Both the position numbers and the translations under genes were made by a program. Source: a virus. Taken from it: DNA of 64,000 nucleotides. Positions 12,411 through 50,718 of the stretch are shown piece after piece; the stretch's first letter is position 1; each line of letters starts with the position of its first letter. Under the pieces are notes generated by a model. It was not told where the DNA came from. It worked only from the letters and a program-made list of their open reading frames with translations, and did not search any database. The DNA lies in the IMG/VR virus record IMGVR_UViG_3300037109_000068, positions 1 to 64,000 of that record. One strand, given 5' to 3'.

Positions 12411-12597
12411 ACGTTTTAAAATTTTAAATTAATAATATTAAATTAAGTTCACTGTCAAAGCCAGGTTGCATTAAGCAGAGCCTGGCTTCTTCAAACAAAA
12501 CAACTAACTAATTAACCAACTTTTAAACCAATTACCATGAAAAACAAATATAACAATTATTTTTTAGCATTAAAATTTATTTTCAAAAAAGAATAAA

Positions 12598-12816: not shown

Positions 12817-12842
12817 CCAAGTTGCAAGAGCATTTCTAACTA

Positions 12843-36894: not shown

Positions 36895-36895
36895 T

Positions 36896-38392: not shown

Positions 38393-38407
38393 GAAAGGAG
38401 GTTTAAA

Positions 38408-38914
38408 ATGTCTAAAGAATATAGAACGATAAAACTGAAAAGTTATATGGATGTTTATATTGAACGTTTAGCAAATGCTGCTATCACTCCAGGTATGTTG
38501 GTGGAGGAAATGAGTACAGGTAAAGTTCGTAAGCACGCTGGTGCTGGAAAAGACGCTTTCCCTATGTTTGCAATTGAGGATGCTCTTCAAGGCAGAGGTA
38601 TTGATGATGCTTATGTTGCTAATGCTGATGTACGCTGTTGGATTCCTCGCCGTGGAGATGAAGTTTATGCATTATTGGCCGATGGTCAAAATGTAGCAAT
38701 TGGAGATTTTTTAGTATCCAATGGAGATGGTTTTTTACAAAAAGATGTAAAAACTTACGAAAGTTGGGAGTCTGCTGATTCACAACATGCTGAATCTATT
38801 TATAGTCAACGTGTGGTTGGAGTAGCTGCTGATGCAAAAAATTTATTAGCATCAGGTTCGGATTCAAGTGCTGGTGGGAAATACTACAACCGGATTGCAA
38901 TTCGTATTATTTAA
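38408..38914 (+). CDS. head decoration/cement protein (DUF2190-like)
   Basis: 168 aa, AAGGAGG 6 nt upstream, immediately precedes the capsid gene. G/A/V-rich beta pattern. Confidence 0.5.
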   Translation: MSKEYRTIKLKSYMDVYIERLANAAITPGMLVEEMSTGKVRKHAGAGKDAFPMFAIEDALQGRGIDDAYVANADVRCWIPRRGDEVYALLADGQNVAIGDFLVSNGDGFLQKDVKTYESWESADSQHAESIYSQRVVGVAADAKNLLASGSDSSAGGKYYNRIAIRII

Positions 38915-38941
38915 TTAAAAAATAGAAAGGAGGAAAAGAAT

Positions 38942-40072
38942 ATGGATTTAAAAGTAAATGTTGATCTAATGGGTAATGGCCAATCAAAAGGCCAAGTAGC
39001 AAATCAGTTAATGACCAATGGTCAACTTAATTTAGGTAAAATGCGTCCCTTTTTAACAGAGGATAAGTTTGGAAACATTAAAGCTTATGTAACTGTTTAT
39101 ACAGGGAAATCCGCAAATGATTATAAAAACCCAAAATGTTACAAAACCTATCCAATTAATACCAATGCCACTCTCCGTAGGGATGAATGGAAACAATTAG
39201 ATGAATCAATACTTGAAGCATCTATGCAGCGTCTTGGAGGGGTTGATGATTTGATTAGTAGAGGATTAGTTTACAATCTAGGTAATGCTATGGGTACAAC
39301 TGTCCTTGAATGGCATACTGTTGCCGGTTCTATGGAAGCTGTTGTAACAATGGATGGTATTACTCGTGGGAGAAATGATCGACCTGAGTATAACTATAAT
39401 TACCTACCTATTCCAATTATTCACGTAGATTATGAATTAAATGCAAGAGAACTTGCAGCAAGTCGTAGTCTTGGAAATCCACTAGACACTACTGATGCTC
39501 AGTTTGCTACTCGTGAGATTTTGGAAACGTTGGAAGAAATGTTATTTACCAATACTACATTTGGGTTTGGTGAAACAGATTCACGTGGTCGGAATAAAAT
39601 TTATAGCTATGTTAATCATCCTGATCGTAATATTGTTAAATTAAGTGTTCCTTGGGATCATTCCGCTTGTACTGCTGCTGGGATAATTCAAGATGTTCAG
39701 GACATGAAATCTGCCGCTACAGCTGCATATCATTATGGACCATTTATGTTGTATATCCCAACTAATTTTGAAAGAGTGTTAGATGATGATTATACAACTT
39801 CCGTAAATGGGACTACGTTAACCATTGGAGAACGTGTTTTGAAATTAAAAAATATTATGGGTATTAAAGTAGTTGATAAACTTCCTGCTGATAATGTTTT
39901 GCTTGTTCAAATGACCAGTGATGTTATTCGTATGGTTCGCGGTATGGGTATTACAAATGTCGAATGGAACCAAGAAGGTGGAATGATTACCAAATATAAA
40001 GTAATGACTATTCAGGTTCCTCAGATTCGTTCAGACCAGAATGGGAAGAGTGGTATTGTTCACATGGCTTAA
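38942..40072 (+). CDS. major capsid protein
   Basis: 376 aa, AAGGAGG SD, positioned after the scaffold and decoration genes. Weak hairpin plus T-run after the stop. Confidence 0.7.
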   Translation: MDLKVNVDLMGNGQSKGQVANQLMTNGQLNLGKMRPFLTEDKFGNIKAYVTVYTGKSANDYKNPKCYKTYPINTNATLRRDEWKQLDESILEASMQRLGGVDDLISRGLVYNLGNAMGTTVLEWHTVAGSMEAVVTMDGITRGRNDRPEYNYNYLPIPIIHVDYELNARELAASRSLGNPLDTTDAQFATREILETLEEMLFTNTTFGFGETDSRGRNKIYSYVNHPDRNIVKLSVPWDHSACTAAGIIQDVQDMKSAATAAYHYGPFMLYIPTNFERVLDDDYTTSVNGTTLTIGERVLKLKNIMGIKVVDKLPADNVLLVQMTSDVIRMVRGMGITNVEWNQEGGMITKYKVMTIQVPQIRSDQNGKSGIVHMA

Positions 40073-40120
40073 TTATCAGTCACTAATCAAGTGATTATTT
40101 TAAACTTAAAAATTTTAATC

Positions 40121-40564
40121 ATGGTACAACGTAAAAAGAAAACAAATACAGAAAAAGTAAAAATTACACGTGAAAAGAAAAACGATACGGAAGAAGTAAA
40201 TCCAGATACTAAAGTAGAAAGGGTAAAAATTGATACGGATGCTCCGATAAGATGGCAAAAAATTGGCGGAGGATCATTTTTTTTAGGTCGTAGAAGAATC
40301 AAACCAAACGAAAAATTTAAGGCTCGTCCTTCTGAGATTCCTGCTATGTTTCGAGATTCAGTAATTCCATTAGATGAAATTCCGGAAAAAGAAGCAGAAC
40401 TTTTAGTAGAAGGGATTAAAACTGTTTATACATTGGAATCCGTAGAAGTTGAAGGTGAAGAAGCTCCTTTATTTAATGTAGTCAATCAAAGCGGGAAAAA
40501 GATCAATGAAAAACCTCTTACTAAAGAAATTGCAGAATCATTTTTAAATGATCTTCAAAAATGA
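40121..40564 (+). CDS. hypothetical charged protein
   Basis: ATG-initiated version (MVQRKKK) of track ORF 40091-40564. Its stop overlaps the first island gene (ATGA). Confidence 0.45.
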   Translation: MVQRKKKTNTEKVKITREKKNDTEEVNPDTKVERVKIDTDAPIRWQKIGGGSFFLGRRRIKPNEKFKARPSEIPAMFRDSVIPLDEIPEKEAELLVEGIKTVYTLESVEVEGEEAPLFNVVNQSGKKINEKPLTKEIAESFLNDLQK

Positions 40565-41256
40565 TCTGGCGAGTACCTCGTATATGGGAAGGTGGTGATG
40601 TTTGGATAATAGGTGGAGGTCCATCAATGCCTAAACAATTTGAAATTCCTGAGAAAGTTATTCAAAGTGTTATTGATGGCTCATCTACTCCAAATGCATA
40701 TTCTCCATATATGTCTTGTTTACATGATAAGCATGTTATTGGAATTAATGTTGCCTATATGATTGGGGATTGGATTGATATGATGTTCTTTGGAGATAGT
40801 ACCTTTTTTTCAAGATATGGACAAGGTTTATCTACATTTTCTGGTCTTCGAGTATCATGTAGTCCTGTAGCAGATCATTATGATTGGATTAAATATTTAC
40901 CACGAGATAATAATCATTTAAAAGGAATTAGTTCTAATCCAAGATGTGTAAGTTGGAACAATAATAGTGGATCGGCTGCAATAAGTGTGGCCGTTCATGC
41001 TGGGGCAAAACGAATTATTCTATTAGGTTTTGATATGAAGCTAGATGATAAAGATCATCAACATTGGCATGATGTATATGGTCAATATGCTAATCGAAAT
41101 GAAAAGAGTGCAATGAATATGCCTTTTCATAAACACTTACATGGATTCCCAGAAATTGCTAAAGATGCAAAAAGAATGGGAGTTACAATTTTGAATGCTT
41201 CACCAGACAGTGCTATTGAATGTTTTAAAAAAGTAAATGTAAAAGATCTAATATGA
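40561..41256 (+). CDS. DUF115/Maf-like (MptE-like) putative glycosyltransferase
   Basis: VWIIGGGPS near the N-terminus and SGSAAISVAVHAGAKRIILLGFDM, as in motility-accessory-factor-type enzymes. Confidence 0.45.
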   Translation: MIWRVPRIWEGGDVWIIGGGPSMPKQFEIPEKVIQSVIDGSSTPNAYSPYMSCLHDKHVIGINVAYMIGDWIDMMFFGDSTFFSRYGQGLSTFSGLRVSCSPVADHYDWIKYLPRDNNHLKGISSNPRCVSWNNNSGSAAISVAVHAGAKRIILLGFDMKLDDKDHQHWHDVYGQYANRNEKSAMNMPFHKHLHGFPEIAKDAKRMGVTILNASPDSAIECFKKVNVKDLI

Positions 41257-42116
41257 AAATAATAAAAGGTAAAAAATACCTAGTTACAGGAGGTTCTGGG
41301 TTTTTAGGAGCTAAATTGATTGAAAGAATCATTAATGAAGGAGGTTTAGTTAGAACTATTGCTAGGAATGAAGGTAAGTTGATTATGCTAAAAGAACGTT
41401 TTGGAGATAAACTTGAAATTTATTTTGGGGATATTTCTGATAAATTCACTATACAGCAGTTTATGGTTGGAAAGTTTGAAGGTATTTTCCATTTAGCTGC
41501 TTTTAAGCATGTTTCATTGGCTGAAAAGTTTTCAATTGAATGCACGAATTCCAATATTATAGGTAGTTTAAATATTTTGGAATTTGGTTCAAAAAAGGAT
41601 GTTAAATTTATTATTGGAATAAGTACTGATAAGGCTGCTCAAATGACAGGCGTTTATGGAGCTTCTAAATATATCATGGAGAAATTATTCCAGCAATATC
41701 AAAATACATATCCAATTATTAATTATAGGATTGTTCGCTATGGTAATGTTTTGTATTCTACAGGTTCAGTATTATGTAAATGGAAAGATTTAATTCAACA
41801 AGGTAAAGAAGTCATAATAACTGATCGAAAAGCAACAAGATATTTTTGGACAATTGATCAAGCAATTGATTTAATTTTTGAATGCTTACTTAATGCAAAA
41901 GATGCTAAACCTTTTGTACCTACTATGAAAGCAATGAGAGTAGGTGATTTATTAGATAGCATGATATTAAAATATGCTCCTGAAGGTGCTAGAATTTCTG
42001 TAAATGAAATAGGTTTGCAGGAAGGTGAGAATCTTCATGAAAGAATATTGGAGACCGGTCAATATAGTAATGAAGCAGAATTATTTACAATACCTGAAAT
42101 AAAAGAGTTAATATGA
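41253..42116 (+). CDS. short-chain NAD-dependent sugar dehydratase/epimerase (CapD/PseB-like)
   Basis: VTGGSGFLGAKL Rossmann motif. STDKAAQMTGVYGASKYIMEKL (STDKA...YxxxK). Confidence 0.75.
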   Translation: MKIIKGKKYLVTGGSGFLGAKLIERIINEGGLVRTIARNEGKLIMLKERFGDKLEIYFGDISDKFTIQQFMVGKFEGIFHLAAFKHVSLAEKFSIECTNSNIIGSLNILEFGSKKDVKFIIGISTDKAAQMTGVYGASKYIMEKLFQQYQNTYPIINYRIVRYGNVLYSTGSVLCKWKDLIQQGKEVIITDRKATRYFWTIDQAIDLIFECLLNAKDAKPFVPTMKAMRVGDLLDSMILKYAPEGARISVNEIGLQEGENLHERILETGQYSNEAELFTIPEIKELI

Positions 42117-42880
42117 ATGTAGTAAAACTTATAGGAGGATTAGGGAATCAATTATTCCAATATGCATTTGGTAAATCATTAGCATCATATGGAGTTGGTG
42201 TTAAATTTGATAAGTCATGGTATAACGAAGAAACAGACCCTCCACGCCCATATCGGTTAGATAAGTTTTGTGTTGATGTTAAACTTGGACGAGCTTTTCC
42301 AAACCAGAGAGTAATTGTAGAGAAATATTTTCATGAAATGAAAGAGGTTGATAATTGTTATTTTAAGGGGTATTGGCAGTATCCTAAATATTATAAAAAT
42401 ATGATCCCTCTATTAAAAAATGAATTTAAAGTTAAAGAAGAATTTTACACTCCAGAATTTTTAAGTTTAAAAGAAAAAATTATAAATTGTGATGCTGTTT
42501 CTATTCATGTTAGGCGAGGTGATTATGTGACTAAAAGTGGATATTATGCTCTTCCATTTAACTATTATATTGAAGCGATCGCTAAAACGAAAGGCGATTT
42601 ATTTATATTTTCTGATGATATAGATTGGTGTAAAAATCAATTTAAACAAGAATATTTTGATCGTAATATTACTTTTATTCATTTAGAAGATTATTTGGAT
42701 TTTGAATTAATAAAGTTATGTAATACTAAAATACTTGCAAATAGTACGTTTAGTTTGTGGACAGCATATTTGAGTGAAGAGTCAACAACTATAATGCCTA
42801 AAAATTGGAGATATCGGAGAGGTGATCCTACACCTTTTGAAATAGGAATCCCTGTTCCTAAACATTGGATACAAATTTAA
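42113..42880 (+). CDS. GT11 alpha-1,2-fucosyltransferase
   Basis: GGLGNQLFQYAFG, HVRRGDY, NSTFSLWTAYL. Confidence 0.85.
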   Translation: MNVVKLIGGLGNQLFQYAFGKSLASYGVGVKFDKSWYNEETDPPRPYRLDKFCVDVKLGRAFPNQRVIVEKYFHEMKEVDNCYFKGYWQYPKYYKNMIPLLKNEFKVKEEFYTPEFLSLKEKIINCDAVSIHVRRGDYVTKSGYYALPFNYYIEAIAKTKGDLFIFSDDIDWCKNQFKQEYFDRNITFIHLEDYLDFELIKLCNTKILANSTFSLWTAYLSEESTTIMPKNWRYRRGDPTPFEIGIPVPKHWIQI

Positions 42881-43509
42881 AAACTATGATAATATCACTT
42901 GACAAAATACAAAGTAATTACCATTTAAATATTAAAGGGGTAATTCACATTGGAGCTCACTACGGAGGTGAATATAAAGATTATAAAAGACATGGTATTA
43001 AACATATGATGTTTTTTGAACCTGTACTTTCTAATTATTTAGAATTATTAAAGACTTTACCAAACAATGATAAAACAACTCAAACATATAATTTAGCACT
43101 TGGTAATGAAATGGGTGTAAAGGAAATGTATATTGAAACTGCAAATAAAGGTATGAGTTGTTCTCTATTAGAACCAGGTACACATTTAAAACAATATCCA
43201 CATATTACTTTTGATGGTCGAGAGTCAGTAAGAATGGTTAAATTAGATCATGTTATTTTCAATAGAAATCAATTTAACATGATTAATATTGATGTACAAG
43301 GCTATGAGTTGGAAGTATTTAAAGGTGCAGTTGAAACATTACCTTATGTTAATATTATTTATGCTGAAGTAAATTTTGAAGAAGTTTATAAAGGTTGTGT
43401 TCATGTTGAAGAGCTTGATTCTTTTTTAAAAGATTTTGGATTTAAAAGAATTTTAACAGATTCCAGTCCTCGTACTTGGGGAGATGCTTTATATTTAAAA
43501 GAATTTTAA
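42865..43509 (+). CDS. FkbM-family methyltransferase
   Basis: IHIGAHYGGE and INIDVQGYELEVFKGA. An alternative start is at 42886. The last 9 nt lie in the second copy of a 53-bp duplication. Confidence 0.7.
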   Translation: MDTNLKTMIISLDKIQSNYHLNIKGVIHIGAHYGGEYKDYKRHGIKHMMFFEPVLSNYLELLKTLPNNDKTTQTYNLALGNEMGVKEMYIETANKGMSCSLLEPGTHLKQYPHITFDGRESVRMVKLDHVIFNRNQFNMINIDVQGYELEVFKGAVETLPYVNIIYAEVNFEEVYKGCVHVEELDSFLKDFGFKRILTDSSPRTWGDALYLKEF

Positions 43510-43553
43510 CAGATTCCAGTCCTCGTACTTGGGGAGATGCTTTATATTTAAAA
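43448..43553. repeat. perfect 53-bp tandem duplication (2 copies) at a gene junction
   Basis: 43448-43500 equals 43501-43553 (GAATTTTAACAGATTCCAGTCCTCGTACTTGGGGAGATGCTTTATATTTAAAA), bounded by ATTTAAAA microhomology. Confidence 0.9.
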
Positions 43554-43564
43554 CAAAAGTAACA

Positions 43565-44287
43565 ATGATTTCACTTGCAATACCTACATATAATCGAAGT
43601 GATTTTACTATTCAATCATTCGAATATAATTATATTTTAAATAATCCAAATATAAGTGAGATAGTTATTTTAGATGACTATTCAGATAAACAAGAATATA
43701 TTTCACTACATAATACAATTAACAATATTACTTCTAAAAAAATTAAGTTATTTAGAAACAATTCAAATTTAGGCCCTTTTAGAAATAAATATGAAGTGGT
43801 TAAGAGATGTAATAGTGATTGGATAATTTTATTGGATTCAGATAATATACTAAATAATATTTATATTGACATTGTTTCTAAACTTAATAAAGAAGAAGAT
43901 GTGTTTTATAGTCCAGAAACATTATTTAGTTTAACCCATAAAGTTGAATGGGATTATTCAGAATATAATCATTTTCTAATTACTAAACAGAATGCTAAAG
44001 AGTATATTTGTAAAGGTAACTTTGAAACAATGCTAAATACAGGTAATTTCTTTATAAATAGAAATAAGTATATTGAAACTTTCGAGCAAAATTGCATAAA
44101 TACAAGATTAGGTGTTAATGATGCATTATACTTTTCTTATTTATGGCTTGCTGGTGGGAATAAAATACAAGTAGTTCCTGAACTTAATTATATTCATAGA
44201 GTGCATAAAGGTAGTTGGTATAAACATCATCAAAATGAATGTGGATTAGCAACAAAAGAAATACATCAAAAAATTAAAGCATTATGA
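43565..44287 (+). CDS. GT2-family glycosyltransferase
   Basis: MISLAIPTYNRSD, VILDDYSD, LLDSDN. The start is taken at the ATG after the duplicated segment. Confidence 0.8.
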   Translation: MISLAIPTYNRSDFTIQSFEYNYILNNPNISEIVILDDYSDKQEYISLHNTINNITSKKIKLFRNNSNLGPFRNKYEVVKRCNSDWIILLDSDNILNNIYIDIVSKLNKEEDVFYSPETLFSLTHKVEWDYSEYNHFLITKQNAKEYICKGNFETMLNTGNFFINRNKYIETFEQNCINTRLGVNDALYFSYLWLAGGNKIQVVPELNYIHRVHKGSWYKHHQNECGLATKEIHQKIKAL

Positions 44288-45144
44288 TTGACTGGATACA
44301 AGGTGATAAATTTAAAGGGATCGCAGATTTTACATATTCACCAAAAAAGAAATTGGCTGATGATTATGACAATCTTCCTAATACATTAGATTTGTCAAAA
44401 TTAAAAGATATCAATATTGTATATACTCACATAATGTATGTAGCATACTTGTTGAATATTATACAGCATTTAGGAAAGCAATTTATACTTATTACCCATA
44501 GTTGTGATTGTAGAATAGAAGATGGTCAAATTGTACGACCTAACGGGTGTGGAATCACACAAAGTATTGATGTATATAAATTGCCTGATAATGTTCTTAA
44601 ATGGTATTCTAAAAATGTAAATGTAGTTAGTCCATGGATTGAATCAATTCCAATTGGGCTTGAAAATGACAGATGGTTTCCTCAATTGCATAAGAAAGAA
44701 AAGATGGTTGAGAAGTTAAAAGAACCTTCTGTAACTAAAAATCTTGCTTACATGTGTCATAATCAAAATACTCATTCAGAACGAAAGGAACTTTATGAAT
44801 TATTTAAAGGAAAATCTTGGATAACAATAGAGCAAGGTTCTAACGGTAGTAAATTTGATGAGTACTTGGATAACATATATAATCATCAATTTGTTCTTAG
44901 TCCTCAAGGAAATGGGATAGATACACATCGTACTTGGGAATGTTTGTATATGAATACAATTCCAATTGAAAAACGAAATAAAAATAACAGATTTTACACA
45001 GATTTACCAATTTGTTTTGTTGATGATTGGAAAGATATTACTGAGGAATTTCTTCAAAAAGAATTAATTCGAATCAAAGACACTAAGTGGAATATGCAGA
45101 AATTAACATTCGAATATTGGAAAAATAAAATATTGAATACATGA
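44284..45144 (+). CDS. exostosin/GT47-like glycosyltransferase
   Basis: C-terminal HQFVLSPQGNGIDTHRTWECLYMNTIPI matches the exostosin-type F.L.P.G....R..E....G.IP pattern. Confidence 0.5.
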   Translation: MIDWIQGDKFKGIADFTYSPKKKLADDYDNLPNTLDLSKLKDINIVYTHIMYVAYLLNIIQHLGKQFILITHSCDCRIEDGQIVRPNGCGITQSIDVYKLPDNVLKWYSKNVNVVSPWIESIPIGLENDRWFPQLHKKEKMVEKLKEPSVTKNLAYMCHNQNTHSERKELYELFKGKSWITIEQGSNGSKFDEYLDNIYNHQFVLSPQGNGIDTHRTWECLYMNTIPIEKRNKNNRFYTDLPICFVDDWKDITEEFLQKELIRIKDTKWNMQKLTFEYWKNKILNT

Positions 45145-45908
45145 AATATTTATTAGTTATAGCAGCATATAATGATGATAGACAACAACATTTTGAAATC
45201 TATCATTCTCCACGTAATAGAGTATATTGTGACTATCATGGATTTGAATATATTGAGATAAAAGATTTAAATTTGATTCCAGAAGCATGTAAACAACGTA
45301 AAATAGTTTGGTGGAGATTTTTTTTAATTAAGCATTGGATTGATACTGGATTTTTGAAAGATGGTGATATTATTTCTCAAATTGATGCAGATATATGCAT
45401 TGTAAATGGAATGAAATCTTTTGAACCTGCTGAAGGAAAAAGTTTTGCGTATGCTATTGATTCTTGCAATACTCATTGTATGGGAGCATTTTCATTTAGA
45501 ATTACAGAATGGGCAAAGCAAATGTTAAATAACTTATTGAATGAATCTCGATATAATAAATACAAAGATACTCCATTTTGGAAAATGTTTCATGAACAAG
45601 CATGCTGGTATTCACTTGCAGGAATAAAAGGAATATTTGCGGATCCAAATCAATTAAGTTGGAAAGAAATAAAAGATTTAGGTTGGAATTCTACAAAAGA
45701 TTATAACCCAGTTTATTCTTTAGAGGAATTAAAAGAAAATGTACAAATATTGCCTGTAGAATGGAATGTTACAGATTGGGAAAGAAAAAGTCAATATTTT
45801 AGATTCCCAACTAAAACGGTAAATAAGCAAGATGTAATATTTCGACATTTTGCGGGTGGAGTAAAATGGAATAATACATGGGCTAAAATTCCAATGTTTA
45901 AAAGATAA
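45141..45908 (+). CDS. nucleotide-diphospho-sugar transferase-like (GT34/GT77-like)
   Basis: VWWRFFLIKHWI...ISQIDADICIV (DxD). Confidence 0.4.
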   Translation: MKYLLVIAAYNDDRQQHFEIYHSPRNRVYCDYHGFEYIEIKDLNLIPEACKQRKIVWWRFFLIKHWIDTGFLKDGDIISQIDADICIVNGMKSFEPAEGKSFAYAIDSCNTHCMGAFSFRITEWAKQMLNNLLNESRYNKYKDTPFWKMFHEQACWYSLAGIKGIFADPNQLSWKEIKDLGWNSTKDYNPVYSLEELKENVQILPVEWNVTDWERKSQYFRFPTKTVNKQDVIFRHFAGGVKWNNTWAKIPMFKR

Positions 45909-45912
45909 AAAT

Positions 45913-46680
45913 ATGAATAAAATTAAAGAAATAACAATTTGTTTGCATTGTGGTTGTTCTCGTGAGGTTGTTAACGCTCAAATGGAAGCTTTAAAATCAT
46001 TAGAAGATCATTATATAATTCATTGGAATAATAGAATTGATAGACATCCTGGTTCATATAATTCATATTCAGAATTAGTAAATGATGCAATTATTACTTC
46101 ACCCACAGAATGGATGATTTTTATTAATGATCGTACTAAACCAATTGCACAAGAAGTTGAACATATTCTTCAATTATTAGAAAATGGATTTGCCGTAGCT
46201 ACTAAATATAGTGTAGGTTTTATAGGATATTCAAAGCAATTAATTAGAACAATAGGTTGGTGGGATGAGCGTTATTATGGTGGAGGCTATGAAGATGATG
46301 ATTTTGTACTAAGATTACGGTTAGCTAATTTAGCATATTATGAGTCAGAAGAATCAACATACGACAAAAGTTGGATCAGTCCATTACGGCCTGTAGGTGG
46401 AGGTGGTTGTCGAGAATCTCAGCCTGAATTTAGAAAGAAATGGGCTGTAATGAAGAATGAAATTAGACGAGTTATTCCAGAATTAAATTATGAAAAGTAT
46501 GCAGGAAAATTAGGTAAAGATCAACTTGATATACAACAATCTTGGAATAATTGGTCGTATTCACAATTAGGAATTATGTTCCATGATAGAATGATTAATA
46601 ATAGTGGAGGAGAATCACGAACAAAGTGGTTTTTAAAAGATGATTATAAAACTGAATTTCGCAAAGTAACATCAGTATGA
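45913..46680 (+). CDS. GT2/GT7-like glycosyltransferase
   Basis: WDERYYGGGYEDDDFVLRL resembles the GWGGEDDD motif of galactosyltransferase-type C-terminal domains. Confidence 0.5.
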   Translation: MNKIKEITICLHCGCSREVVNAQMEALKSLEDHYIIHWNNRIDRHPGSYNSYSELVNDAIITSPTEWMIFINDRTKPIAQEVEHILQLLENGFAVATKYSVGFIGYSKQLIRTIGWWDERYYGGGYEDDDFVLRLRLANLAYYESEESTYDKSWISPLRPVGGGGCRESQPEFRKKWAVMKNEIRRVIPELNYEKYAGKLGKDQLDIQQSWNNWSYSQLGIMFHDRMINNSGGESRTKWFLKDDYKTEFRKVTSV

Positions 46681-47339
46681 GTACACAAAGGACAATAGTA
46701 TTAGTATTACGTAGTGGAGGTGACTTTTCATTTCGAGATGTTGAACTGATTGCTCGACATATCAATGGAAATTGGAAATCAAAAGTTAAACCACGAATAA
46801 TTTGCTTATGGGATAATGCTACACACCATTATAATTTAGGAAATATTGAATTTATTCCACTTACAAACAATTGGCCTAAAACTTGGTCACGGATTGAATT
46901 ATATAGCCCTGAGATGGAACAATATCGACCATTTCTATATGTTGATTTAGATACTGCAGTGGTTAATTCAATTGAAAATATTTTTGATTTAGTAAAAGAT
47001 GAATCTCAATATATAACACTTGAAGATTTTAGTCAGAAAAAACAATTAGCAACAGGGCTTGTGTGGTTTCCTGCTAATTCTAAAAAAATTGAAAATGTGT
47101 GGAAGGCACGTGACAAAGCGAGGGTTGGATCATTTAGAATGGATTATTTCCTACGTGAAGTGATCACCCCCGATGCCTTCTGGCAACAATTAACAGATAA
47201 GATACATGATTTTAAACCTGTAGCATCACCTCTATTGAACGATATACCTTCAGAAGGTGTTCTGATATGTTTTCATGGAAAACCTCGAATCTTTGATGCT
47301 GCTAAACATATTAACTGGGTAAATGAATATGTAAAATGA
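46677..47339 (+). CDS. GT8-like nucleotide-sugar transferase
   Basis: FLYVDLDTAVVNSIENIFDL (DxD context). Confidence 0.4.
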   Translation: MSTQRTIVLVLRSGGDFSFRDVELIARHINGNWKSKVKPRIICLWDNATHHYNLGNIEFIPLTNNWPKTWSRIELYSPEMEQYRPFLYVDLDTAVVNSIENIFDLVKDESQYITLEDFSQKKQLATGLVWFPANSKKIENVWKARDKARVGSFRMDYFLREVITPDAFWQQLTDKIHDFKPVASPLLNDIPSEGVLICFHGKPRIFDAAKHINWVNEYVK

Positions 47340-47938
47340 AAAAAATAACAATCATAATCCCATACAAAGAAGACCGTGGATGGCTTAAAGATGCTATTAA
47401 TAGTGTTCCTAAGGATGTTCAATTGATACTTTCCAAAGGAGATGGAAATTGGCCTCAGAATTTTAATAAAGTATTAAAAGAAGCAACAGGTGACTATATC
47501 AAATACTTGCATGAGGATGATATGCTAACACCTAATTGCATAGTTGATTCAATTCGTTGTATGAAAAACTATGAAGCAGATTTCATTCATGGAAATGCAA
47601 TAGAATTATCTAATGATTCTCCTGTTAGAGTTTATCGCCCAACTCTTAAATTACCTACATTAGAAATGCTTTTAAAGCATAATTCTATCCATAGTGCGAC
47701 TACAATGTACAGAAGAGAAGTATTTGAAAAAATAGGAGGGTTTAATGAAGATAATAAATATTATTCTTTTGAAGAATTTGAATTTAATCTACGGGTTTTG
47801 AAAGCAGGATTTAAAATCATGTATTGTGATTCTGAATTAGCTTTTTATCGTAGGCATCCAAAACAGACAATACGTACTGTTAACCAAATTCAAAGAAAAC
47901 AATATAGACAAGAATTAATAAATTCATATAATGATTGA
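47336..47938 (+). CDS. GT2-family glycosyltransferase
   Basis: ITIIIPYKEDRGWL, YLHEDDML. Confidence 0.75.
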   Translation: MKKITIIIPYKEDRGWLKDAINSVPKDVQLILSKGDGNWPQNFNKVLKEATGDYIKYLHEDDMLTPNCIVDSIRCMKNYEADFIHGNAIELSNDSPVRVYRPTLKLPTLEMLLKHNSIHSATTMYRREVFEKIGGFNEDNKYYSFEEFEFNLRVLKAGFKIMYCDSELAFYRRHPKQTIRTVNQIQRKQYRQELINSYND

Positions 47939-48653
47939 ACAGTCACCTATATTAATAACAGGTTGCCCTCGTAGTGGGACAAGTATAATTGCTTCGATAA
48001 TTAATTTATGTGGAGCTTTTGGTGGAGAAATGTCTAAGCGTGGAATGTATTCAAATGATATTATACATGAGAAAATAGTTAAGCCTTTTATTAGTAAATT
48101 ATCAATTGATCCAAAAGGACAGTATCCATTATCATATAATGAAAGTTTACAGATTCCAGTAAATTGGAAAAATTCAATTGAAAAAGCAATTATTGATCAA
48201 AAATATAAGTATGGTCAGTGGATGTATAAAGATGCATTATCAAGTATAATTTGGCCAGTTTGGAATTATGCTTTTCCAAATGCAAAATGGATAATTGTTC
48301 GCAGACGCACTGGTGATATTATTCAATCTTGTTTAAAAACAAACTATATGTGTGCTTTCGATAATAAAGAAAATCAAAAAGCTATTGGAGTATATACTGA
48401 AAAAGATGGTTGGTTATGGTGGGTACATGAGTATGAAAAAAGATTTGTTGAAATGATTGAGTCTGGTGTAAATTGTAAACAGATTTGGCCAGAAAGAATG
48501 GCTACTGGAGATTATTCACAGATATATGAGATGCTTGATTGGCTTGGTTTAAAATGGGATAAACACATTCCAGAAATAACTACGCCTTTGTTTGATCATT
48601 CTTTACAAAGATATAGAAGAGAACCAAATAATAAGGGAACATTTACTTTATAA
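47931..48653 (+). CDS. sulfotransferase-like P-loop protein
   Basis: ILITGCPRSGTS (5'-PSB-like) and WIIVRRRTGDIIQS (3'-PB-like). Confidence 0.6.
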   Translation: MIEQSPILITGCPRSGTSIIASIINLCGAFGGEMSKRGMYSNDIIHEKIVKPFISKLSIDPKGQYPLSYNESLQIPVNWKNSIEKAIIDQKYKYGQWMYKDALSSIIWPVWNYAFPNAKWIIVRRRTGDIIQSCLKTNYMCAFDNKENQKAIGVYTEKDGWLWWVHEYEKRFVEMIESGVNCKQIWPERMATGDYSQIYEMLDWLGLKWDKHIPEITTPLFDHSLQRYRREPNNKGTFTL

Positions 48654-48670
48654 TTAAGGAGGAAATAAAA

Positions 48671-49069
48671 ATGGCAGCACTCGTAACCACAACTGAAGTA
48701 CGAGAAATCATGGATAACGAAGATATTCCTGATTCACTTGTAAATGCTTGTATCACAGCAGCAGCAGCACAATTAGATATTGTATTTGCAAATAACTTAG
48801 AAATAAGTGCTGATTTATTAAAAGAAATTGAGCGCTGGTTATCTGCACATTTTGTTGCTTCTACACCTAACTATCGAACAGCAAGTAAGGAGAAAATAGG
48901 TGATGCTGAAGTCACTTATACTGGAAAATATGGTGAAAATTTATCGTCTACTCCTTATGGACAAATGGCTCTTCAATTGGACATTACAGGAAATTTACTA
49001 AAGTATGGTAAATTTAATGCTACACTTCGAGCAGTAAAAAGTTTTGATTCAAACGATAAAAGGTATTAA
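48671..49069 (+). CDS. head-tail connector (gp6-like/DUF4054-like)
   Basis: 132 aa, AAGGAGG SD. First gene of the neck module. Confidence 0.5.
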   Translation: MAALVTTTEVREIMDNEDIPDSLVNACITAAAAQLDIVFANNLEISADLLKEIERWLSAHFVASTPNYRTASKEKIGDAEVTYTGKYGENLSSTPYGQMALQLDITGNLLKYGKFNATLRAVKSFDSNDKRY

Positions 49070-49070
49070 A

Positions 49071-49469
49071 ATGGGAATAAATTCATTTTTAACAAGAGCA
49101 TATAAGCAAACAGCTGTCTATTGGGGAAATCCTGTAAATGATGGAGCTGGAGATTTTACTTTTGATGAACCCATAGAAATAAAGTGTAGATGGGAAGATG
49201 GGACGAGTATATTTTTATCTGCAACAGGAAAAGAGTTGGATTCAAAGGCAGTTGTATATCCTTTGCAAGACTTAGATGAAAATGGTTTTATATTTCTAGG
49301 TACCATAGATGATTTACTTGAATCATATGAAGACAGTCTTGGGGCTATTGATGATCCAAAATCTATTGAAGGTGCTTTAGCAATACTTCGATTTGATAGA
49401 TCACCTATTTTAGGATCAACTACAGAGTTTATGCGTAAAGCATATTTAACTAGTAAAAATATGTGGTAA
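49071..49469 (+). CDS. head-tail adaptor/head closure protein
   Basis: Size and position. The start is taken at MGINSF, just after the upstream stop. Confidence 0.4.
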   Translation: MGINSFLTRAYKQTAVYWGNPVNDGAGDFTFDEPIEIKCRWEDGTSIFLSATGKELDSKAVVYPLQDLDENGFIFLGTIDDLLESYEDSLGAIDDPKSIEGALAILRFDRSPILGSTTEFMRKAYLTSKNMW

Positions 49470-50269: not shown

Positions 50270-50286
50270 AAAAGGAGGTAAAAACA

Positions 50287-50718
50287 ATGAGTAGTAAAGC
50301 TTTTACTGGAGTAGGTACAGAATTTAACCGTTGGAATAAAGCTACTGGAAAGTGGGTACATATTGCTGAGGTTAATTCAATAACCGGTCCAGGAATGAAA
50401 AGAACAACTATTGATGTGACTTCGTTAGATTCGGTAGGAGGTTACCGTGAATTTATTGCAGGTTTTCGAGATGCAGGAACTGTATCTTTGAAAATGAATT
50501 TTACACGAGATACCTATAATGTTATGATTGGAGATTTTGAAAGCAATGTACTTCAAAATTATAACATTATTTTGCCTGATACAGAAGTTACTTCATTTGA
50601 GTTTGAAGGGCTTGTAACAGAATTACCATTAAGTATTCCGGCTGATGATAAAGTTACTGTTGATGTAACTATACAAATCAGTGGGCCGGTCGTATTCGAT
50701 AGTGGTTCAGGTTCGTAA
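50287..50718 (+). CDS. major tail (tube) protein
   Basis: 143 aa, AAGGAGG SD, followed by the chaperone pair and tape measure. Confidence 0.7.
   Translation: MSSKAFTGVGTEFNRWNKATGKWVHIAEVNSITGPGMKRTTIDVTSLDSVGGYREFIAGFRDAGTVSLKMNFTRDTYNVMIGDFESNVLQNYNIILPDTEVTSFEFEGLVTELPLSIPADDKVTVDVTIQISGPVVFDSGSGS

What the first reader, a model, noticed from the sequence alone, without database searches (positions are those of the whole stretch)
40561..48653. Eleven-gene glycan-biosynthesis island between the major capsid and head-tail connector genes: candidate virion-glycosylation system
Seen:
- Eleven consecutive plus-strand ORFs, eight of them joined by ATGA start/stop overlaps.
- They sit between the capsid gene (38942-40072, plus one unknown ORF) and the connector gene (48671).
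- Readable motifs: a DUF115/Maf-like enzyme (IIGGGPS; ILLGFDM), a CapD/PseB-type short SDR (VTGGSGFLG; STDKA..YGASKY), and a GT11 alpha-1,2-fucosyltransferase (GGLGNQLFQYAFG, HVRRGDY, NSTFSLW).
- Also an FkbM methyltransferase, two GT2 enzymes, an exostosin-like enzyme, three further DxD transferase-like proteins, and a P-loop sulfotransferase-like protein (GCPRSGTS).
- I see no membrane span in any of them, and no Wzx/Wzy or priming phosphoglycosyltransferase.

Established: Maf-type enzymes O-glycosylate flagellin. To my knowledge, phage-encoded transferases next to structural genes that glycosylate capsid or tail proteins are known only as one to a few genes, in some mycobacteriophages.

Inference: the enzymes act stepwise in the cytoplasm on a soluble acceptor, most plausibly the capsid, the decoration protein or the adjacent 147-aa protein. 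The product would be a complex fucosylated, methylated and possibly sulfated glycan. This pathway is much larger than any I know of in a structural module.
Basis: partly seen in the sequence, partly recalled or inferred. Interest (0 to 1): 0.9.

Follow-up and report, generated by a model that had tools for sequence, protein, structure and literature searches.

The report
Swappable sugar-coating gene island in phage
An uncultivated tailed phage carries eleven soluble sugar-building and sugar-modifying enzyme genes between its capsid and connector genes; related phages hold a different gene set at the same spot, and the enzymes most likely coat the virus particle with a complex, variable glycan, which has not been shown directly.

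Summary
Window 40561-48653 holds eleven tightly packed plus-strand genes between the capsid gene and the head-tail connector gene. None has a membrane span.

- **Enzyme assignments:** all eleven have profile or structural support as glycan enzymes. Support is strong for eight and weak for g7 and g8; g1 rests on a PHROG profile and a predicted fold.
- **Link to capsid glycosylation:** g6 is a clear homologue (E 2e-42) of chlorovirus A075L (GT114). A075L is the xylosyltransferase that builds the glycan on the PBCV-1 major capsid protein.
- **Not unique to this phage:** 80 related viral contigs were fetched, and 50 of them span the capsid-to-connector junction completely. With the window that makes 51 loci. 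The same junction holds 0 to 12 genes there, in 34 different arrangements.
- **Fixed frame:** a conserved frame surrounds a swappable middle. It is unknown protein C0, then the Maf/Cst-II-like g1, then variable cassettes, then sulfotransferase g11.
- **No export machinery:** only 1 of 417 island proteins (window included) has a membrane-like segment.
- **Cultured phages:** g1 homologues in P1, PAJU2 and CcrColossus also lie in late or structural operons, next to transferases or methyltransferases.

Best reading, with probability about 0.6: a cytoplasmic system that glycosylates and sulfates virion proteins. No acceptor has been identified and nothing has been shown biochemically. I class it as a new variant of a known kind.

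The parts
38408..38914 (+). Head decoration protein, a candidate glycan acceptor. It has a Ser-rich loop near its C-terminus (LLASGSDSSAGG).
   Evidence: PHROG766 'head decoration' 2.6e-14 over residues 11-112. Fifteen of 33 distinct g1-bearing relatives have a D-x-S-G/D-S-S loop in the C-terminal extension, against 0 of 10 relatives without g1. The window's own protein does not match that exact pattern. The comparison is confounded by phylogeny.
38942..40072 (+). Major capsid protein, the left border of the locus
   Evidence: Pfam DUF6260 3e-23 and PHROG771/264. It is 36% identical to the annotated capsid protein of Brevundimonas phages. Relatives in IMG/VR are 46-68% identical.
40121..40564 (+). 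C0, a conserved 147-aa protein of unknown function that always precedes g1
   Evidence: Found in 58 loci and absent from the 7 island-less relatives. Joined to g1 by an ATGA overlap and has no Shine-Dalgarno sequence. The AlphaFold2 model shows two small confident domains plus a disordered 40-residue N-terminus. No fold or family match was found.
40561..41256 (+). g1, a minimal Maf/Cst-II-like (sialyltransferase-fold) transferase. It is the conserved first enzyme of the locus.
   Evidence: PHROG4603 3e-31. Pfam MptE-like scores 20.7 bits, below the cut-off. The AlphaFold2 model has pLDDT 89. Its top PDB folds are Maf 5MU5 (TM 0.54) and Cst-II (TM 0.43-0.48). Present in 56 loci. More than 1000 homologue clusters exist in metagenomes.
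41253..42116 (+). g2, a UDP-GlcNAc 4,6-dehydratase-type short-chain dehydrogenase (PseB/FnlA/CapE family) that modifies a nucleotide sugar
   Evidence: Polysacc_synt_2 2.3e-62. PDB FlaA1/PseB 2GN4 5e-35 and CapE 7e-35. TIGR03589 PseB scores 160 bits, below its equivalog cut-off of 407.
42113..42880 (+). g3, a GT11 alpha-1,2-fucosyltransferase-family enzyme
   Evidence: Pfam Glyco_transf_11 3.2e-22, above the cut-off. PHROG2644 1.8e-33. HVRRGDY motif present.
42886..43509 (+). g4, an FkbM-family methyltransferase. Its 3' end carries a 53-nt tandem duplication (43435-43540).
   Evidence: Methyltransf_21 2.8e-16 and TIGR01444 3e-16. The ATG 42886 start is supported. The duplication is shown.
43565..44287 (+). 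g5, a GT2 glycosyltransferase
   Evidence: Glycos_transf_2 3.6e-12. Start at ATG 43565, giving 240 aa like its orthologue in L099. It has the lowest GC in the island, 23.9%.
44284..45144 (+). g6, a GT114 glycosyltransferase homologous to chlorovirus PBCV-1 A075L, the capsid-glycan beta-xylosyltransferase that acts on fucose
   Evidence: phmmer 1.8e-42 to PDB 8Q8I/8AVQ/8ASA. The family profile gives 1.8e-56. A075L residues R158, R208 and E211 align with g6 R167, R216 and E219. The catalytic D73 corresponds to the invariant D75 by profile register. The g6 family co-occurs with GT11 in 10 of 11 loci.
45141..45908 (+). g7, a probable GT-A transferase of DUF273/GT34 type; evidence is weak to moderate
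   Evidence: DUF273 1.7e-4, below the cut-off. It belongs to a rare family of 92 representative clusters. Some members are domains of multi-transferase fusion proteins with GT9, GT2, GT4 or GT11, and two members hit GT34 weakly. It is 83% identical to its orthologue in L099, with pN/pS 0.22.
45913..46680 (+). g8, a probable GT-A transferase of GT7/GT2 type; evidence is weak
   Evidence: Glyco_transf_7C 1.7e-3, Glyco_tranf_2_2 2.3e-3 and PHROG2456 4e-3. Weak matches to beta-1,4-galactosyltransferase structures. It has a GGYEDDD motif. pN/pS against L099 is 0.32.
46677..47339 (+). g9, a GT8-like retaining transferase and a homologue of P1 PmgQ. It is the commonest cassette gene in the phage family.
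   Evidence: PHROG1962 4.9e-25. The family profile matches Skp1 alpha-galactosyltransferase 6MW5 (2.6e-5), GT8 5GVV, LgtC and glycogenin. The DxD residues D90 and D92 are invariant. P1 pmgQ matches at 2e-23. It is fused to g1 in L043 and L045.
47336..47938 (+). g10, a GT2 glycosyltransferase
   Evidence: Glycos_transf_2 1e-7, Glyco_trans_2_3 1.3e-6 and NCBIfam EpsE 6e-10.
47931..48653 (+). g11, a PAPS-type sulfotransferase. It is the conserved last gene of the locus.
   Evidence: Sulfotransfer_3 scores 28.6 bits against a cut-off of 27. The family profile's best PDB matches are tyrosylprotein sulfotransferases 1 and 2, at 6e-5. The GxxRSG loop, R125 and S133 are invariant. Present in 43 loci. 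An APS kinase gene lies directly downstream in L030, L031, L034 and L080.
48671..49069 (+). Head-tail connector-type protein, the right border of the locus
   Evidence: DUF4054 5e-4 and PHROG302. Preceded by AGGAGG. In the 7 island-less relatives it lies 87-127 nt after the capsid gene.
50287..50718 (+). Tail tube protein, a candidate glycan acceptor. It ends in a Ser/Gly-rich tail (DSGSGS).
   Evidence: Phage_TTP_11/12. A C-terminal S/T/G-rich tail is present in 17 of 23 distinct g1-bearing tail tube proteins, against 1 of 3 without g1; p = 0.2, not significant. In mycobacteriophages the glycans sit on the C-termini of capsid and tail tube subunits, as cited in PMC12619734.

Best explanation
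The region is one allele of a hypervariable, phage-encoded glycan locus built into the virion morphogenesis operon.

**Proposed mechanism.**
1. Late in infection the genes are expressed together with the head and tail genes. They are translated at low level and largely by coupling.
2. The soluble enzymes work in the cytoplasm. g2 modifies UDP-GlcNAc into a 6-deoxy-hexosamine precursor.
3. The transferases add sugars one at a time to an exposed segment of a virion protein. They are g1 (Maf/Cst-II-like), g9 (GT8-like), g3 (GT11 fucosyltransferase), g6 (GT114, which in chlorovirus adds xylose to fucose), g5 and g10 (GT2), and g7 and g8 (GT-A-like).
4. g4 methylates the product and g11 sulfates it, using PAPS.

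**Likely acceptors.** The head decoration protein, the C-terminal tail of the tail tube protein, the capsid protein, or C0.

**Evolution.** Conserved end genes (C0 and g1 on the left, g11 on the right) frame a middle section whose cassettes are exchanged between phages. This gives each lineage a different surface glycan.

**Shown here:**
- the enzyme families;
- the synteny;
- the variability of the locus;
- purifying selection on its genes;
- the lack of membrane components.

**Inferred:**
- the virion as target;
- the order of the reactions;
- the sugars involved;
- the biological role, such as shielding, antigenic or adhesive variation, or particle stability.
For: 1. **Position and packing.** The island lies between the capsid and connector genes. 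It has 7 ATGA overlaps and one 8-nt overlap, and no Shine-Dalgarno sequences. The flanking structural genes carry AGGAGG. Promoter-like matches are no more frequent than in shuffled sequence, and the two plus-strand terminator-like hits inside the island are just the two copies of the 53-nt duplication.
2. **Conserved site, variable content.** In 50 complete relatives the same junction holds 87 nt to 9.6 kb. With the window there are 34 architectures among 51 loci and 119 protein clusters. C0, g1 and g11 are conserved at the ends.
3. **Cassette content in relatives is glycan chemistry throughout.** It includes GDP-mannose dehydratase, epimerases, a DegT aminotransferase, UDP-GlcNAc 2-epimerase, UDP-glucose dehydrogenase, a PfkB kinase, GT2/9/10/11/32 transferases, methyltransferases and radical SAM enzymes.
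4. **Capsid-glycan enzyme homologue.** g6 matches A075L at E 1.8e-42. A075L is experimentally shown to build the PBCV-1 capsid glycan by xylosylating fucose. The g6 family co-occurs with GT11 in 10 of 11 loci.
5. **The sulfotransferase looks genuine.** An APS kinase gene lies next to g11 homologues in four relatives.
6. **No export machinery.** No flippase, polymerase, transporter or priming enzyme was found, and only 1 of 417 island proteins has a membrane-like segment.
7. **Genes are functional.** Against the closest relative L099 the gene order is the same, amino-acid identity is 66-87% and pN/pS is 0.17-0.43, similar to the structural genes.
8. **Independent cultured phages.** g1 homologues sit between head-closure and tail-terminator genes with a methyltransferase in PAJU2. 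They sit after tail genes with two transferases and a methyltransferase in CcrColossus. In P1 they lie in a late operon together with a g9 homologue. XacN1 has a g1 homologue and is reported to have virion glycoproteins.
9. **Precedents.** Mycobacteriophage virion glycosylation (cited) and the glycogene clusters of giant viruses, some with sulfate-metabolism genes.
Against: - No glycoprotein, acceptor sequon or mass shift has been demonstrated.
- The g1 fold match is modest (TM 0.54) and nearly as good to Cst-II, which acts on lipooligosaccharide and not on protein.
- g1 lacks Maf's substrate-binding domains, and no CMP-ulosonate pathway was found in any annotated cassette.
- Soluble transferases of LPS and capsule pathways also lack membrane spans and could use host carriers and exporters.
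- The Ser-rich features of the decoration and tail tube proteins correlate only loosely with the island. They fail in L063 and L078, and the comparison is confounded by phylogeny.
- C0 is neither Ser/Thr-rich nor preceded by a Shine-Dalgarno sequence.
- The P1 homologues pmgO and pmgQ are dispensable and have no known phenotype.
- The host is unknown.
Confidence: 0.6

Rival explanations
1. The enzymes remodel a host envelope glycan (LPS or LOS core, O-antigen, capsule or an S-layer glycan) on host lipid carriers at the inner face of the membrane. The purpose might be to mask receptors, exclude superinfecting phages, or stop progeny from sticking to debris. The host's own flippases and ligases would export the product.
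For: - The g1 model resembles the LOS sialyltransferase Cst-II.
- GT2, GT8-like (LgtC), GT9, GT11 and GT32 enzymes, together with sugar-nucleotide genes, are the usual content of bacterial O-antigen and capsule loci.
- Low GC and cassette mosaicism also resemble such loci.
- Transferases of those pathways are often soluble, so the lack of membrane spans is not decisive.
Against: - The fixed position inside the head-to-tail morphogenesis operon, coupled to a capsid-adjacent gene, is unusual for host-conversion genes.
- Expression late in a lytic cycle leaves little time to remodel the envelope.
- None of 57 islands carries a priming phosphoglycosyltransferase, flippase, polymerase, ligase or transporter.
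- The only characterised close homologue, A075L, acts on a capsid glycoprotein.
- Some islands consist of C0 plus the sulfotransferase alone.
Confidence: 0.22
2. The locus makes a soluble product. This could be a free oligosaccharide, or a glycosylated, methylated and sulfated small molecule or peptide made during infection. Neither a virion nor an envelope component would be modified.
For: FkbM-type and other methyltransferases, radical SAM enzymes, a zinc alcohol dehydrogenase, a transketolase-like E1 enzyme, AdoMet decarboxylase and sulfotransferases also occur in natural-product tailoring clusters.
Against: - No scaffold-forming enzyme (PKS, NRPS, or a RiPP precursor with its maturase) was seen.
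- Transferases dominate the content.
- The position in the structural operon and the A075L homology point to a macromolecular acceptor.
Confidence: 0.06
3. The enzymes hypermodify the phage DNA with sugars, as in T-even phages and in phages with glycosylated 5-hydroxymethylpyrimidines.
For: Phage transferases that glycosylate DNA are well known (papers listed). g7 has a sub-threshold hit to the JBP1 DNA-binding domain, E 0.005.
Against: - No hydroxymethylase, TET or 5mYOX-type gene lies in or next to the island.
- The phage's recognisable DNA-modification genes belong to the 7-deazaguanine pathway, on the other strand 30 kb away.
- GT11, GT114, FkbM and sulfotransferase families act on glycans.
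- The locus is in the structural module, not the replication module.
Confidence: 0.03

Closest known systems
Virion glycosylation in mycobacteriophages Che8, Corndog and Myrna (Freeman et al. 2023, Cell Host Microbe; cited in PMC12619734, PMC12363180 and PMC13313380; the paper itself is not held in the library)
   Same: - The phage encodes its own transferases, and in some cases a methyltransferase.
- These enzymes modify structural proteins in the cytoplasm.
- The glycans sit on the C-termini of capsid and tail tube subunits. The tail tube protein here also ends in a Ser/Gly-rich tail.
   Different: - Those systems have one to a few genes; this one has 11, and up to 12 with C0.
- The hosts there are Actinobacteria; the host here is unknown and the genome is low-GC.
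- Here the locus is a hypervariable cassette site with conserved flanking genes, a Maf/Cst-II-like enzyme, a GT114 enzyme and a sulfotransferase.
- Homology between the enzymes of the two systems was not tested.
- Glycosylation here is unproven.
Capsid N-glycan machinery of chlorovirus PBCV-1 (A064R, A075L, A111/114R and others) and the clade-specific glycogene clusters of mimiviruses
   Same: - Virus-encoded soluble enzymes build an unusual fucose-, xylose- and methyl-containing glycan on a capsid or fibril protein in the cytoplasm.
- g6 is a true homologue of A075L (GT114).
- Mimivirus clusters of 6-21 genes are clade-variable and can include sulfate-metabolism genes.
   Different: - Those are giant viruses of eukaryotes.
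- The PBCV-1 genes are scattered rather than forming one operon.
- They have no Maf/Cst-II-like enzyme.
- Here the cluster is a translationally coupled operon embedded in a tailed-phage structural module.
Bacterial flagellin glycosylation islands (Maf or FlmG with pseudaminic or legionaminic acid pathways)
   Same: - Cytoplasmic O-glycosylation of a self-assembling extracellular polymer.
- A Maf-like fold in g1 and a PseB-like dehydratase in g2.
- Variable island content between strains.
   Different: - g1 is only the 231-aa catalytic core, without Maf's N- and C-terminal domains.
- It scores below the Pfam cut-off.
- No PseC, PseH, PseG, PseI or PseF (or NeuB/NeuA) genes are present.
- The target cannot be flagellin in any obvious way.
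Bacterial O-antigen and capsule gene clusters
   Same: - Low-GC mosaic cassettes of GT2/8/11/32 transferases and sugar-nucleotide genes between conserved flanking genes.
- Extreme allelic diversity between close relatives.
   Different: - There is no priming phosphoglycosyltransferase, Wzx, Wzy, Wzz, ABC transporter or ligase in any of 57 islands.
- The location is a phage head-tail operon.
Phage P1 pmgO-pmgQ late-operon genes, Pseudomonas phage PAJU2 gp10-gp12 and Caulobacter phage CcrColossus gp126-gp131
   Same: They carry homologues of g1 (and, in P1, of g9). These lie in late or structural operons beside methyltransferases or transferases.
   Different: - These sets are small, at 2-5 genes.
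- Their function is uncharacterised.
- pmgO and pmgQ are non-essential in P1.
- They have no C0 and no sulfotransferase.

Membership tests
GT114 (founding member: PBCV-1 A075L) | Significant full-domain sequence similarity to A075L | tested here: met
   phmmer 1.8e-42 (148.8 bits), g6 residues 93-284 against chain residues 81-278. The family profile gives 1.8e-56 over positions 64-271.
GT114 (founding member: PBCV-1 A075L) | Catalytic base Asp73 and the phosphate- or ribose-binding residues Arg158, Arg208 and Glu211 | tested here: met
   R158, R208 and E211 align with g6 R167, R216 and E219 in the printed alignment. All three are invariant or nearly invariant in the family. D73 corresponds to the invariant D75 by profile register only. 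The uracil and phosphate contacts N148 and T150 are Cys and Asn in the window protein.
GT114 (founding member: PBCV-1 A075L) | Beta-xylosyltransferase activity on O4 of L-fucose in a capsid glycan | not testable with these tools
   The only indirect support is co-occurrence with a GT11 fucosyltransferase gene in 10 of 11 loci.
Maf (motility-associated factor) / Pfam PF01973 MptE-like (DUF115) | Scores above the Pfam gathering threshold | tested here: not met
   20.7 bits against a cut-off of 34.6; only residues 137-161 match. Two of the 120 listed homologues carry a precomputed PF01973 hit.
Maf (motility-associated factor) / Pfam PF01973 MptE-like (DUF115) | Central sialyltransferase-like catalytic fold | tested here: met
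   AlphaFold2 model with pLDDT 89.1. The top Foldseek hit is Maf 5MU5 (E 2.5e-4, TM 0.54), followed by Cst-II (TM 0.43-0.48).
Maf (motility-associated factor) / Pfam PF01973 MptE-like (DUF115) | N- and C-terminal domains flanking the catalytic core (Maf proteins are about 600 aa) | tested here: not met
   g1 is 231 aa. It covers only a fraction of the 632-residue 5MU5 chain (TM normalised to the target is 0.22).
Maf (motility-associated factor) / Pfam PF01973 MptE-like (DUF115) | Genomic association with a CMP-nonulosonate biosynthesis pathway and flagellin genes | tested here: not met
   Only a PseB-like gene (g2) is present. No NeuB/PseI-type or CMP-transferase-type family was found in the annotated clusters of the relatives. 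Many singleton clusters were not scanned.
GT11 alpha-1,2-fucosyltransferases | Pfam PF01531 above threshold, plus the HxRRGD motif | tested here: met
   79.6 bits against a cut-off of 23.9. HVRRGDY is in the translation.
PAPS-dependent sulfotransferases (Pfam Sulfotransfer_3) | Family score above threshold, with 5'-phosphosulfate-binding loop and 3'-phosphate-binding Arg/Ser | tested here: met
   28.6 bits against a cut-off of 27, which is marginal. GCPRSGTS is in the translation. T10, G11, R14, S15, G16, R125 and S133 are invariant across 34 homologues.
PAPS-dependent sulfotransferases (Pfam Sulfotransfer_3) | Link to PAPS supply | tested here: met
   An APS kinase gene (PF01583, 3.6e-17) lies immediately downstream of the g11 homologue in L030, L031, L034 and L080. 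None is in the window itself.
Tyrosylprotein sulfotransferases (TPST) | Specific similarity to TPST rather than to carbohydrate sulfotransferases; a Tyr-containing acidic acceptor | tested here: inconclusive
   TPST1 and TPST2 are the best PDB matches, but only at 6e-5 to 8e-4. Few bacterial Sulfotransfer_3 structures exist for comparison. Islands with a sulfotransferase but no transferase (L061) are compatible with a protein acceptor.
PseB (UDP-GlcNAc 4,6-dehydratase, inverting; TIGR03589) | Scores above the equivalog cut-off | tested here: not met
   160.1 bits against a cut-off of 407.75. FnlA scores 121 against 730. g2 is a member of the broader Polysacc_synt_2 family (211 bits).
Phage virion-glycosylation systems (mycobacteriophage type) | Phage-encoded transferases in or beside the structural operon | tested here: met
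Phage virion-glycosylation systems (mycobacteriophage type) | Glycans demonstrated on capsid or tail tube subunits | not testable with these tools
   The only indirect sign is the Ser/Gly-rich C-terminal tail of the tail tube protein and the Ser-rich loop of the decoration protein.
Bacterial O-antigen / capsule (Wzx/Wzy or ABC-dependent) loci | Priming phosphoglycosyltransferase, flippase, polymerase or transporter (polytopic membrane proteins) | tested here: not met
   The highest hydropathy in the window genes is 1.48. Only 1 of 417 island ORFs (window included) has a convincing membrane-like segment, a 121-aa protein in L080, and none is multi-pass.

The most novel reading that the evidence does not exclude
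Many tailed phages outside the Actinobacteria may wear a self-made, lineage-specific glycan coat. It would be encoded by a modular cassette locus inside the structural operon, a viral counterpart of the bacterial O-antigen locus.

- The locus is framed by a conserved Maf/Cst-II-like transferase (with its partner C0) and a sulfotransferase.
- It shares at least one enzyme family (GT114) with the capsid-glycan machinery of giant algal viruses.
- It may include direct or glycan-borne sulfation of virion proteins, which to my knowledge has not been described for phages.
- The small g1-containing gene sets of P1, PAJU2 and the phiCbK-like phages would be minimal versions of the same system.
Probability: 0.45. 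Interest if true: 0.85.

Novelty: new variant of a known kind. Interest (0 to 1): 0.78.

Why it matters
**What is known.** Virion glycosylation by phage-encoded enzymes is experimentally known only for a few actinobacteriophages with one to a few genes. There it alters antibody recognition.

**What this would change, if correct.**
- Phages in environmental communities would be investing up to about 9 kb, roughly 12-14% of their genome, in a variable surface glycan.
- That would affect how we think about phage antigenicity, particle stability, adhesion to mucus or polysaccharide matrices, and recognition by grazers or immune systems.
- It would also affect how phage structural modules are annotated.

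**Broader links.**
- The enzyme set ties phages to giant-virus capsid glycobiology through GT114.
- It offers a large natural library of soluble transferases, methyltransferases and sulfotransferases acting on a protein-bound glycan.
- It gives testable functions to long-unexplained genes of model phages, such as P1 pmgO and pmgQ and PAJU2 gp10-12.

Tried and rejected
- **Near-identical DNA in GenBank phages.** None was found, so no annotated record could be used.
- **Function of C0.** The PDB sequence profile, Pfam, PHROGs, AlphaFold2 and Foldseek against PDB and BFVD gave nothing significant. The first word-indexed homologue search found only 3 proteins. The profile search found 134, all unnamed.
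- **Host identification.** In the genome collection, relatives are binned into MAGs of Bacteroidota (three, plus one labelled Bacteroidales), Nitrospiraceae, Syntrophomonadaceae, Hyphomicrobiales and an archaeon. Several are whole-phage-sized contigs, so binning is unreliable and the host is left open. There are no tRNAs.
- **A capsid-protein feature that tracks island presence.** One indel (GETDSRGRN against GG--GT) does not track it.
- **Nonulosonate or Kdo pathway genes in relatives' cassettes.** None was found in the 40 representatives scanned.
- **Promoter and terminator scan.** Promoter-like matches are at the chance level, so internal promoters cannot be excluded.
- **Freeman et al. 2023.** The paper is not in the held library and is cited only through other papers.
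- **Jabs and HFTV1 cryo-EM papers and the Acinetobacter 'RNA and sugars' paper.** They had no relevant information.
- **DNA glycosylation.** Considered and rejected as the main reading; see the rival explanations.

Full report
**1. What is in the sequence**

The window is part of an uncultivated tailed phage with a long non-contractile tail.

- The plus-strand structural module contains, in order:
  - large terminase (28583);
  - portal (30121);
  - MuF-like head morphogenesis protein (31575);
  - protease/scaffold-like protein (36896);
  - head decoration protein (38408);
  - major capsid protein (38942-40072);
  - connector-type protein (48671);
  - Neck1-type protein (49470);
  - tail terminator (49877);
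  - tail tube protein (50287);
  - tape measure protein (51558).
- Between the capsid and connector genes lie a 147-aa ORF (C0, 40121-40564) and the eleven ORFs of the finding.
- There are seven ATGA overlaps and one 8-nt overlap. The remaining gaps are 4 to 55 nt.
- None of these genes has a Shine-Dalgarno sequence. The scaffold, decoration, capsid, connector and tail tube genes are each preceded by AGGAGG.
- No island protein has a hydrophobic segment compatible with a membrane span.
- Island GC is 29.7%, against 34-35% in the flanking structural genes.
- No near-identical DNA exists among GenBank phages. The best annotated capsid homologue is 36% identical.

**2. Enzyme assignments**

| Gene | Assignment | Evidence |
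|---|---|---|
| g2 | UDP-GlcNAc 4,6-dehydratase type (PseB/FnlA/CapE) | Polysacc_synt_2 2e-62. PDB FlaA1/PseB and CapE about 1e-35. Below the PseB equivalog cut-off |
| g3 | GT11 | 3e-22, HVRRGDY motif |
| g4 | FkbM methyltransferase | |
| g5, g10 | GT2 | |
| g11 | Sulfotransferase | Sulfotransfer_3 just above threshold. Invariant PAPS-binding loop and Arg/Ser. Best solved relatives are tyrosylprotein sulfotransferases, 6e-5 |
| g9 | GT8-like | PHROG 'glycosyltransferase' 5e-25. Profile matches Skp1 alpha-galactosyltransferase, GlyE, LgtC and glycogenin. Invariant DxD |
| g1 | Maf/Cst-II-like | Fails the Pfam MptE/DUF115 threshold but matches PHROG4603 at 3e-31. Confident model (pLDDT 89). Best solved folds are Maf 5MU5 (TM 0.54) and Cst-II |
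| g6 | GT114 | 1.8e-42 to PBCV-1 A075L (1.8e-56 with the family profile). Donor-binding Arg/Arg/Glu residues aligned. Invariant Asp at the position of the catalytic base |
| g7, g8 | GT-A-like, weakest | See below |

It is in fact a member of CAZy family GT114.
- A075L is the beta-xylosyltransferase that adds xylose to fucose in the N-glycans of the chlorovirus major capsid protein (PMC11571054; PMC9614988).
- g7 belongs to a rare family. Some members are domains of large multi-transferase proteins, and two hit GT34 weakly.
- g8 has only sub-threshold GT7C/GT2 hits and a GGYEDDD motif.
- Both g7 and g8 are conserved under purifying selection.

**3. The island is one allele of a family-wide hypervariable locus**

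- Eighty IMG/VR contigs encode capsid proteins 46-68% identical to this one.
- In the 50 contigs that span the junction, the capsid-to-connector distance ranges from 87 nt to 9.6 kb.
- In seven of them the two genes are adjacent, with no C0 and no enzymes.
- Clustering the 417 ORFs found at this site gives 119 protein clusters. There are 34 different gene orders among 51 complete loci, window included.
- The ends are fixed:
  - C0 occurs in 58 loci;
  - g1 follows it, in 56 loci;
  - the g11-type sulfotransferase, in 43 loci, is last before the connector.
- The middle section is a mosaic of glycan chemistry:
  - sugar-nucleotide enzymes: GDP-mannose 4,6-dehydratase and epimerases, a DegT aminotransferase, UDP-GlcNAc 2-epimerase, UDP-glucose dehydrogenase and a PfkB sugar kinase;
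  - transferases: GT2, GT9, GT10, GT11 and GT32-type enzymes;
  - several methyltransferase families;
  - B12-radical SAM enzymes;
  - a zinc dehydrogenase and a transketolase-like enzyme;
  - AdoMet decarboxylase.
- In four loci an APS kinase gene lies immediately after the sulfotransferase gene. This is good evidence that g11 really uses PAPS.
- GT114 genes co-occur with GT11 genes in 10 of 11 loci. This fits the fucose acceptor of A075L.
- Only one of the 417 proteins has a membrane-like segment, and none is polytopic.
- The minimal complete form is C0-g1-g9-sulfotransferase (L063, L078). In L043 and L045, g1 and g9 are fused into one protein.
- The closest relative is L099, a 62.4-kb contig.
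  - It has the same gene order plus one extra FkbM gene.
  - Island proteins are 66-87% identical, against 65% for the capsid protein.
  - pN/pS is 0.17-0.43.
  - The genes are therefore functional and are retained as a block.

**4. Evidence from cultured phages**

The g1 family (PHROG4603, auto-annotated as 'alpha-2,3-sialyltransferase') occurs in 65 GenBank phage records.

- In Pseudomonas phage PAJU2 it lies between the head-closure and tail-terminator genes, beside a methyltransferase.
- In Caulobacter phage CcrColossus it follows tail genes. After it come a nucleotide-sugar transferase, a methyltransferase and a GT9 enzyme.
- In coliphage P1 it is pmgO, in a late-promoter operon that also contains pmgQ, a g9 homologue (2e-23).
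- Both P1 genes are non-essential in a CRISPRi screen (PMC10695390). An accessory virion modification would be expected to behave this way.
- Xanthomonas phage XacN1 has a g1 homologue. Its authors reported at least two virion glycoproteins (PMC5852040).
- None of these sets has been characterised.

**5. Mechanism and target**

The best-supported reading is a cytoplasmic, stepwise glycosylation pathway for a virion protein, with methylation and sulfation. It would be co-expressed with the head and tail genes at low, coupled translation levels. The arguments are:

- position and synteny;
- the A075L homology;
- the absence of any export or lipid-carrier machinery across all alleles;
- hypervariability typical of exposed surface structures;
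- the mycobacteriophage and giant-virus precedents.

The acceptor is not established.

- **Tail tube protein.** It ends in a Ser/Gly/Thr-rich tail in 17 of 23 distinct g1-bearing relatives, against 1 of 3 without g1.
- **Decoration protein.** It has a Ser-rich 'D-x-S-G-S-S' loop in its non-core C-terminal extension in 15 of 33 g1-bearing relatives, against 0 of 10 without g1.
- These correlations have few independent contrasts and clear exceptions (L063, L078). They are leads, not evidence.
- **C0.** It is genetically the tightest partner of g1 and the sulfotransferase. However, it is not Ser/Thr-rich, lacks a Shine-Dalgarno sequence, and has no recognisable fold. It could be an adaptor, given that g1 lacks Maf's substrate-binding domains. 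It could also be a low-copy acceptor or a regulator.
- **Sulfotransferase-only islands.** L061 has C0 and the sulfotransferase but no transferase. Together with the TPST-like best matches, this leaves open direct protein sulfation.

**6. Rivals**

- **Host envelope glycan remodelling** is the serious alternative, at about 0.2.
  - In its favour: the g1 fold is nearly as close to the LOS sialyltransferase Cst-II, and the enzyme families and mosaicism resemble O-antigen loci.
  - Against it: the morphogenetic-operon position, late coupled expression, the lack of any priming or export gene in 57 islands, and the capsid-glycan function of the only characterised close homologue.
- **A soluble metabolite** (about 0.06) and **DNA glycosylation** (about 0.03) are unlikely.
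- The phage's recognisable DNA-modification genes belong to the 7-deazaguanine pathway and lie elsewhere.

**7. Novelty and verdict**

- I found no paper describing this locus or phage group.
- Virus-encoded virion glycosylation is a known kind of system, so this is not categorically new.
- The new elements are:
  - a conserved-frame, cassette-swapping locus of up to 12 genes at a fixed site in the structural operon of a widespread environmental phage family;
  - a Maf/Cst-II-like enzyme, a GT114 enzyme shared with chloroviruses, and a PAPS-dependent sulfotransferase;
  - a link to unexplained late genes of model phages, which makes the idea directly testable.
- Confidence that this is a glycan-biosynthesis locus is above 0.95. 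Confidence that the target is the virion is about 0.6.

Noticed in passing
window 43435-43540: The 3' end of g4 carries a 53-nt tandem duplication (43435-43487 and 43488-43540, 96% identical). Because 53 = 3n+2, the second copy is read in another frame. As a result g4 ends LYLKEF* at 43509, and a spurious TTG start appears for g5. The closest relative L099 has no duplication; there g5 starts 2 nt after g4's stop. This could be replication slippage, a recombination scar or an assembly artefact.
   Followed up: partly
window 9949-13463, minus strand: There are genes of the 7-deazaguanine (preQ0/queuosine-type) pathway: GTP cyclohydrolase I (9949-10809), QueC (10806-11528) and a radical-SAM QueE-like gene (12843-13463). 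They lie within the replication module (PolA, UDG-exonuclease fusion, SNF2 helicase, DnaC-like protein, primase). The phage DNA is therefore probably modified with a 7-deazaguanine. No DpdA-type transglycosylase was looked for.
   Followed up: no
window 32870-34897, plus strand: A 675-aa protein lies inside the head module, between the MuF-like gene and the scaffold. It has a ConA-like lectin domain (Laminin_G_3, 7e-11), DUF2341 and a weak GH43-like C-terminus. It is absent from the closest relative L099, which has small ORFs there. It may be a capsid-borne carbohydrate-binding protein.
   Followed up: partly
window 36876-50286 (regions upstream of start codons): A strong AGGAGG Shine-Dalgarno sequence precedes the scaffold, decoration, capsid, connector and tail tube genes. 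None precedes C0 or any island gene. Such strong Shine-Dalgarno use sits oddly with a Bacteroidota host, which is the commonest MAG label among relatives.
   Followed up: no
L083-L090 (genome contigs relatives): Relatives of this phage are binned into MAGs labelled Bacteroidota or Bacteroidetes (three, plus one Bacteroidales), Nitrospiraceae, Syntrophomonadaceae, Hyphomicrobiales and 'archaeon'. Several are 56-75 kb contigs that look like complete phage genomes, so they are probably mis-binned free phage. The host remains unknown.
   Followed up: partly
L098 (phage P1, record positions 79592-82150): P1 pmgO is a g1 homologue and pmgQ is a g9 homologue. Both lie in the late pmgL operon with a Ser/Thr phosphatase gene between them, and both are non-essential. 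This may be a minimal version of the same system in a model phage.
   Followed up: partly
L027 10820-11283, L059 12330-12790 and L080 11687-12121: In three relatives an S-adenosylmethionine decarboxylase gene (AdoMet_dc, 1e-25) is inserted between C0 and g1. This is unexpected in a glycan locus. It might supply an aminopropyl donor for a modification.
   Followed up: no
L030, L031, L052, L062 and L080 (clusters 12, 23 and 17; cluster 45 in L052 and L080 only): One recurring cassette combines a zinc alcohol dehydrogenase, a thiamine-dependent E1/transketolase-like enzyme and a short-chain dehydrogenase. A PfkB sugar kinase joins it in L052 and L080. This suggests synthesis of an unusual branched or higher-carbon sugar.
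   Followed up: no
L061 3713-4902; also L064 and L071: These islands have the sulfotransferase but no g1 homologue, and L061 has no transferase at all (L061: capsid gene, C0, sulfotransferase, connector). The sulfotransferase can therefore function without a phage-made glycan.
   Followed up: partly
window 45141-45908 (g7): g7 belongs to a rare protein family. Only 92 clusters among 1.84 billion representatives match at E <= 1e-3, and several are domains within 1000-1500-aa multi-glycosyltransferase proteins.
   Followed up: partly
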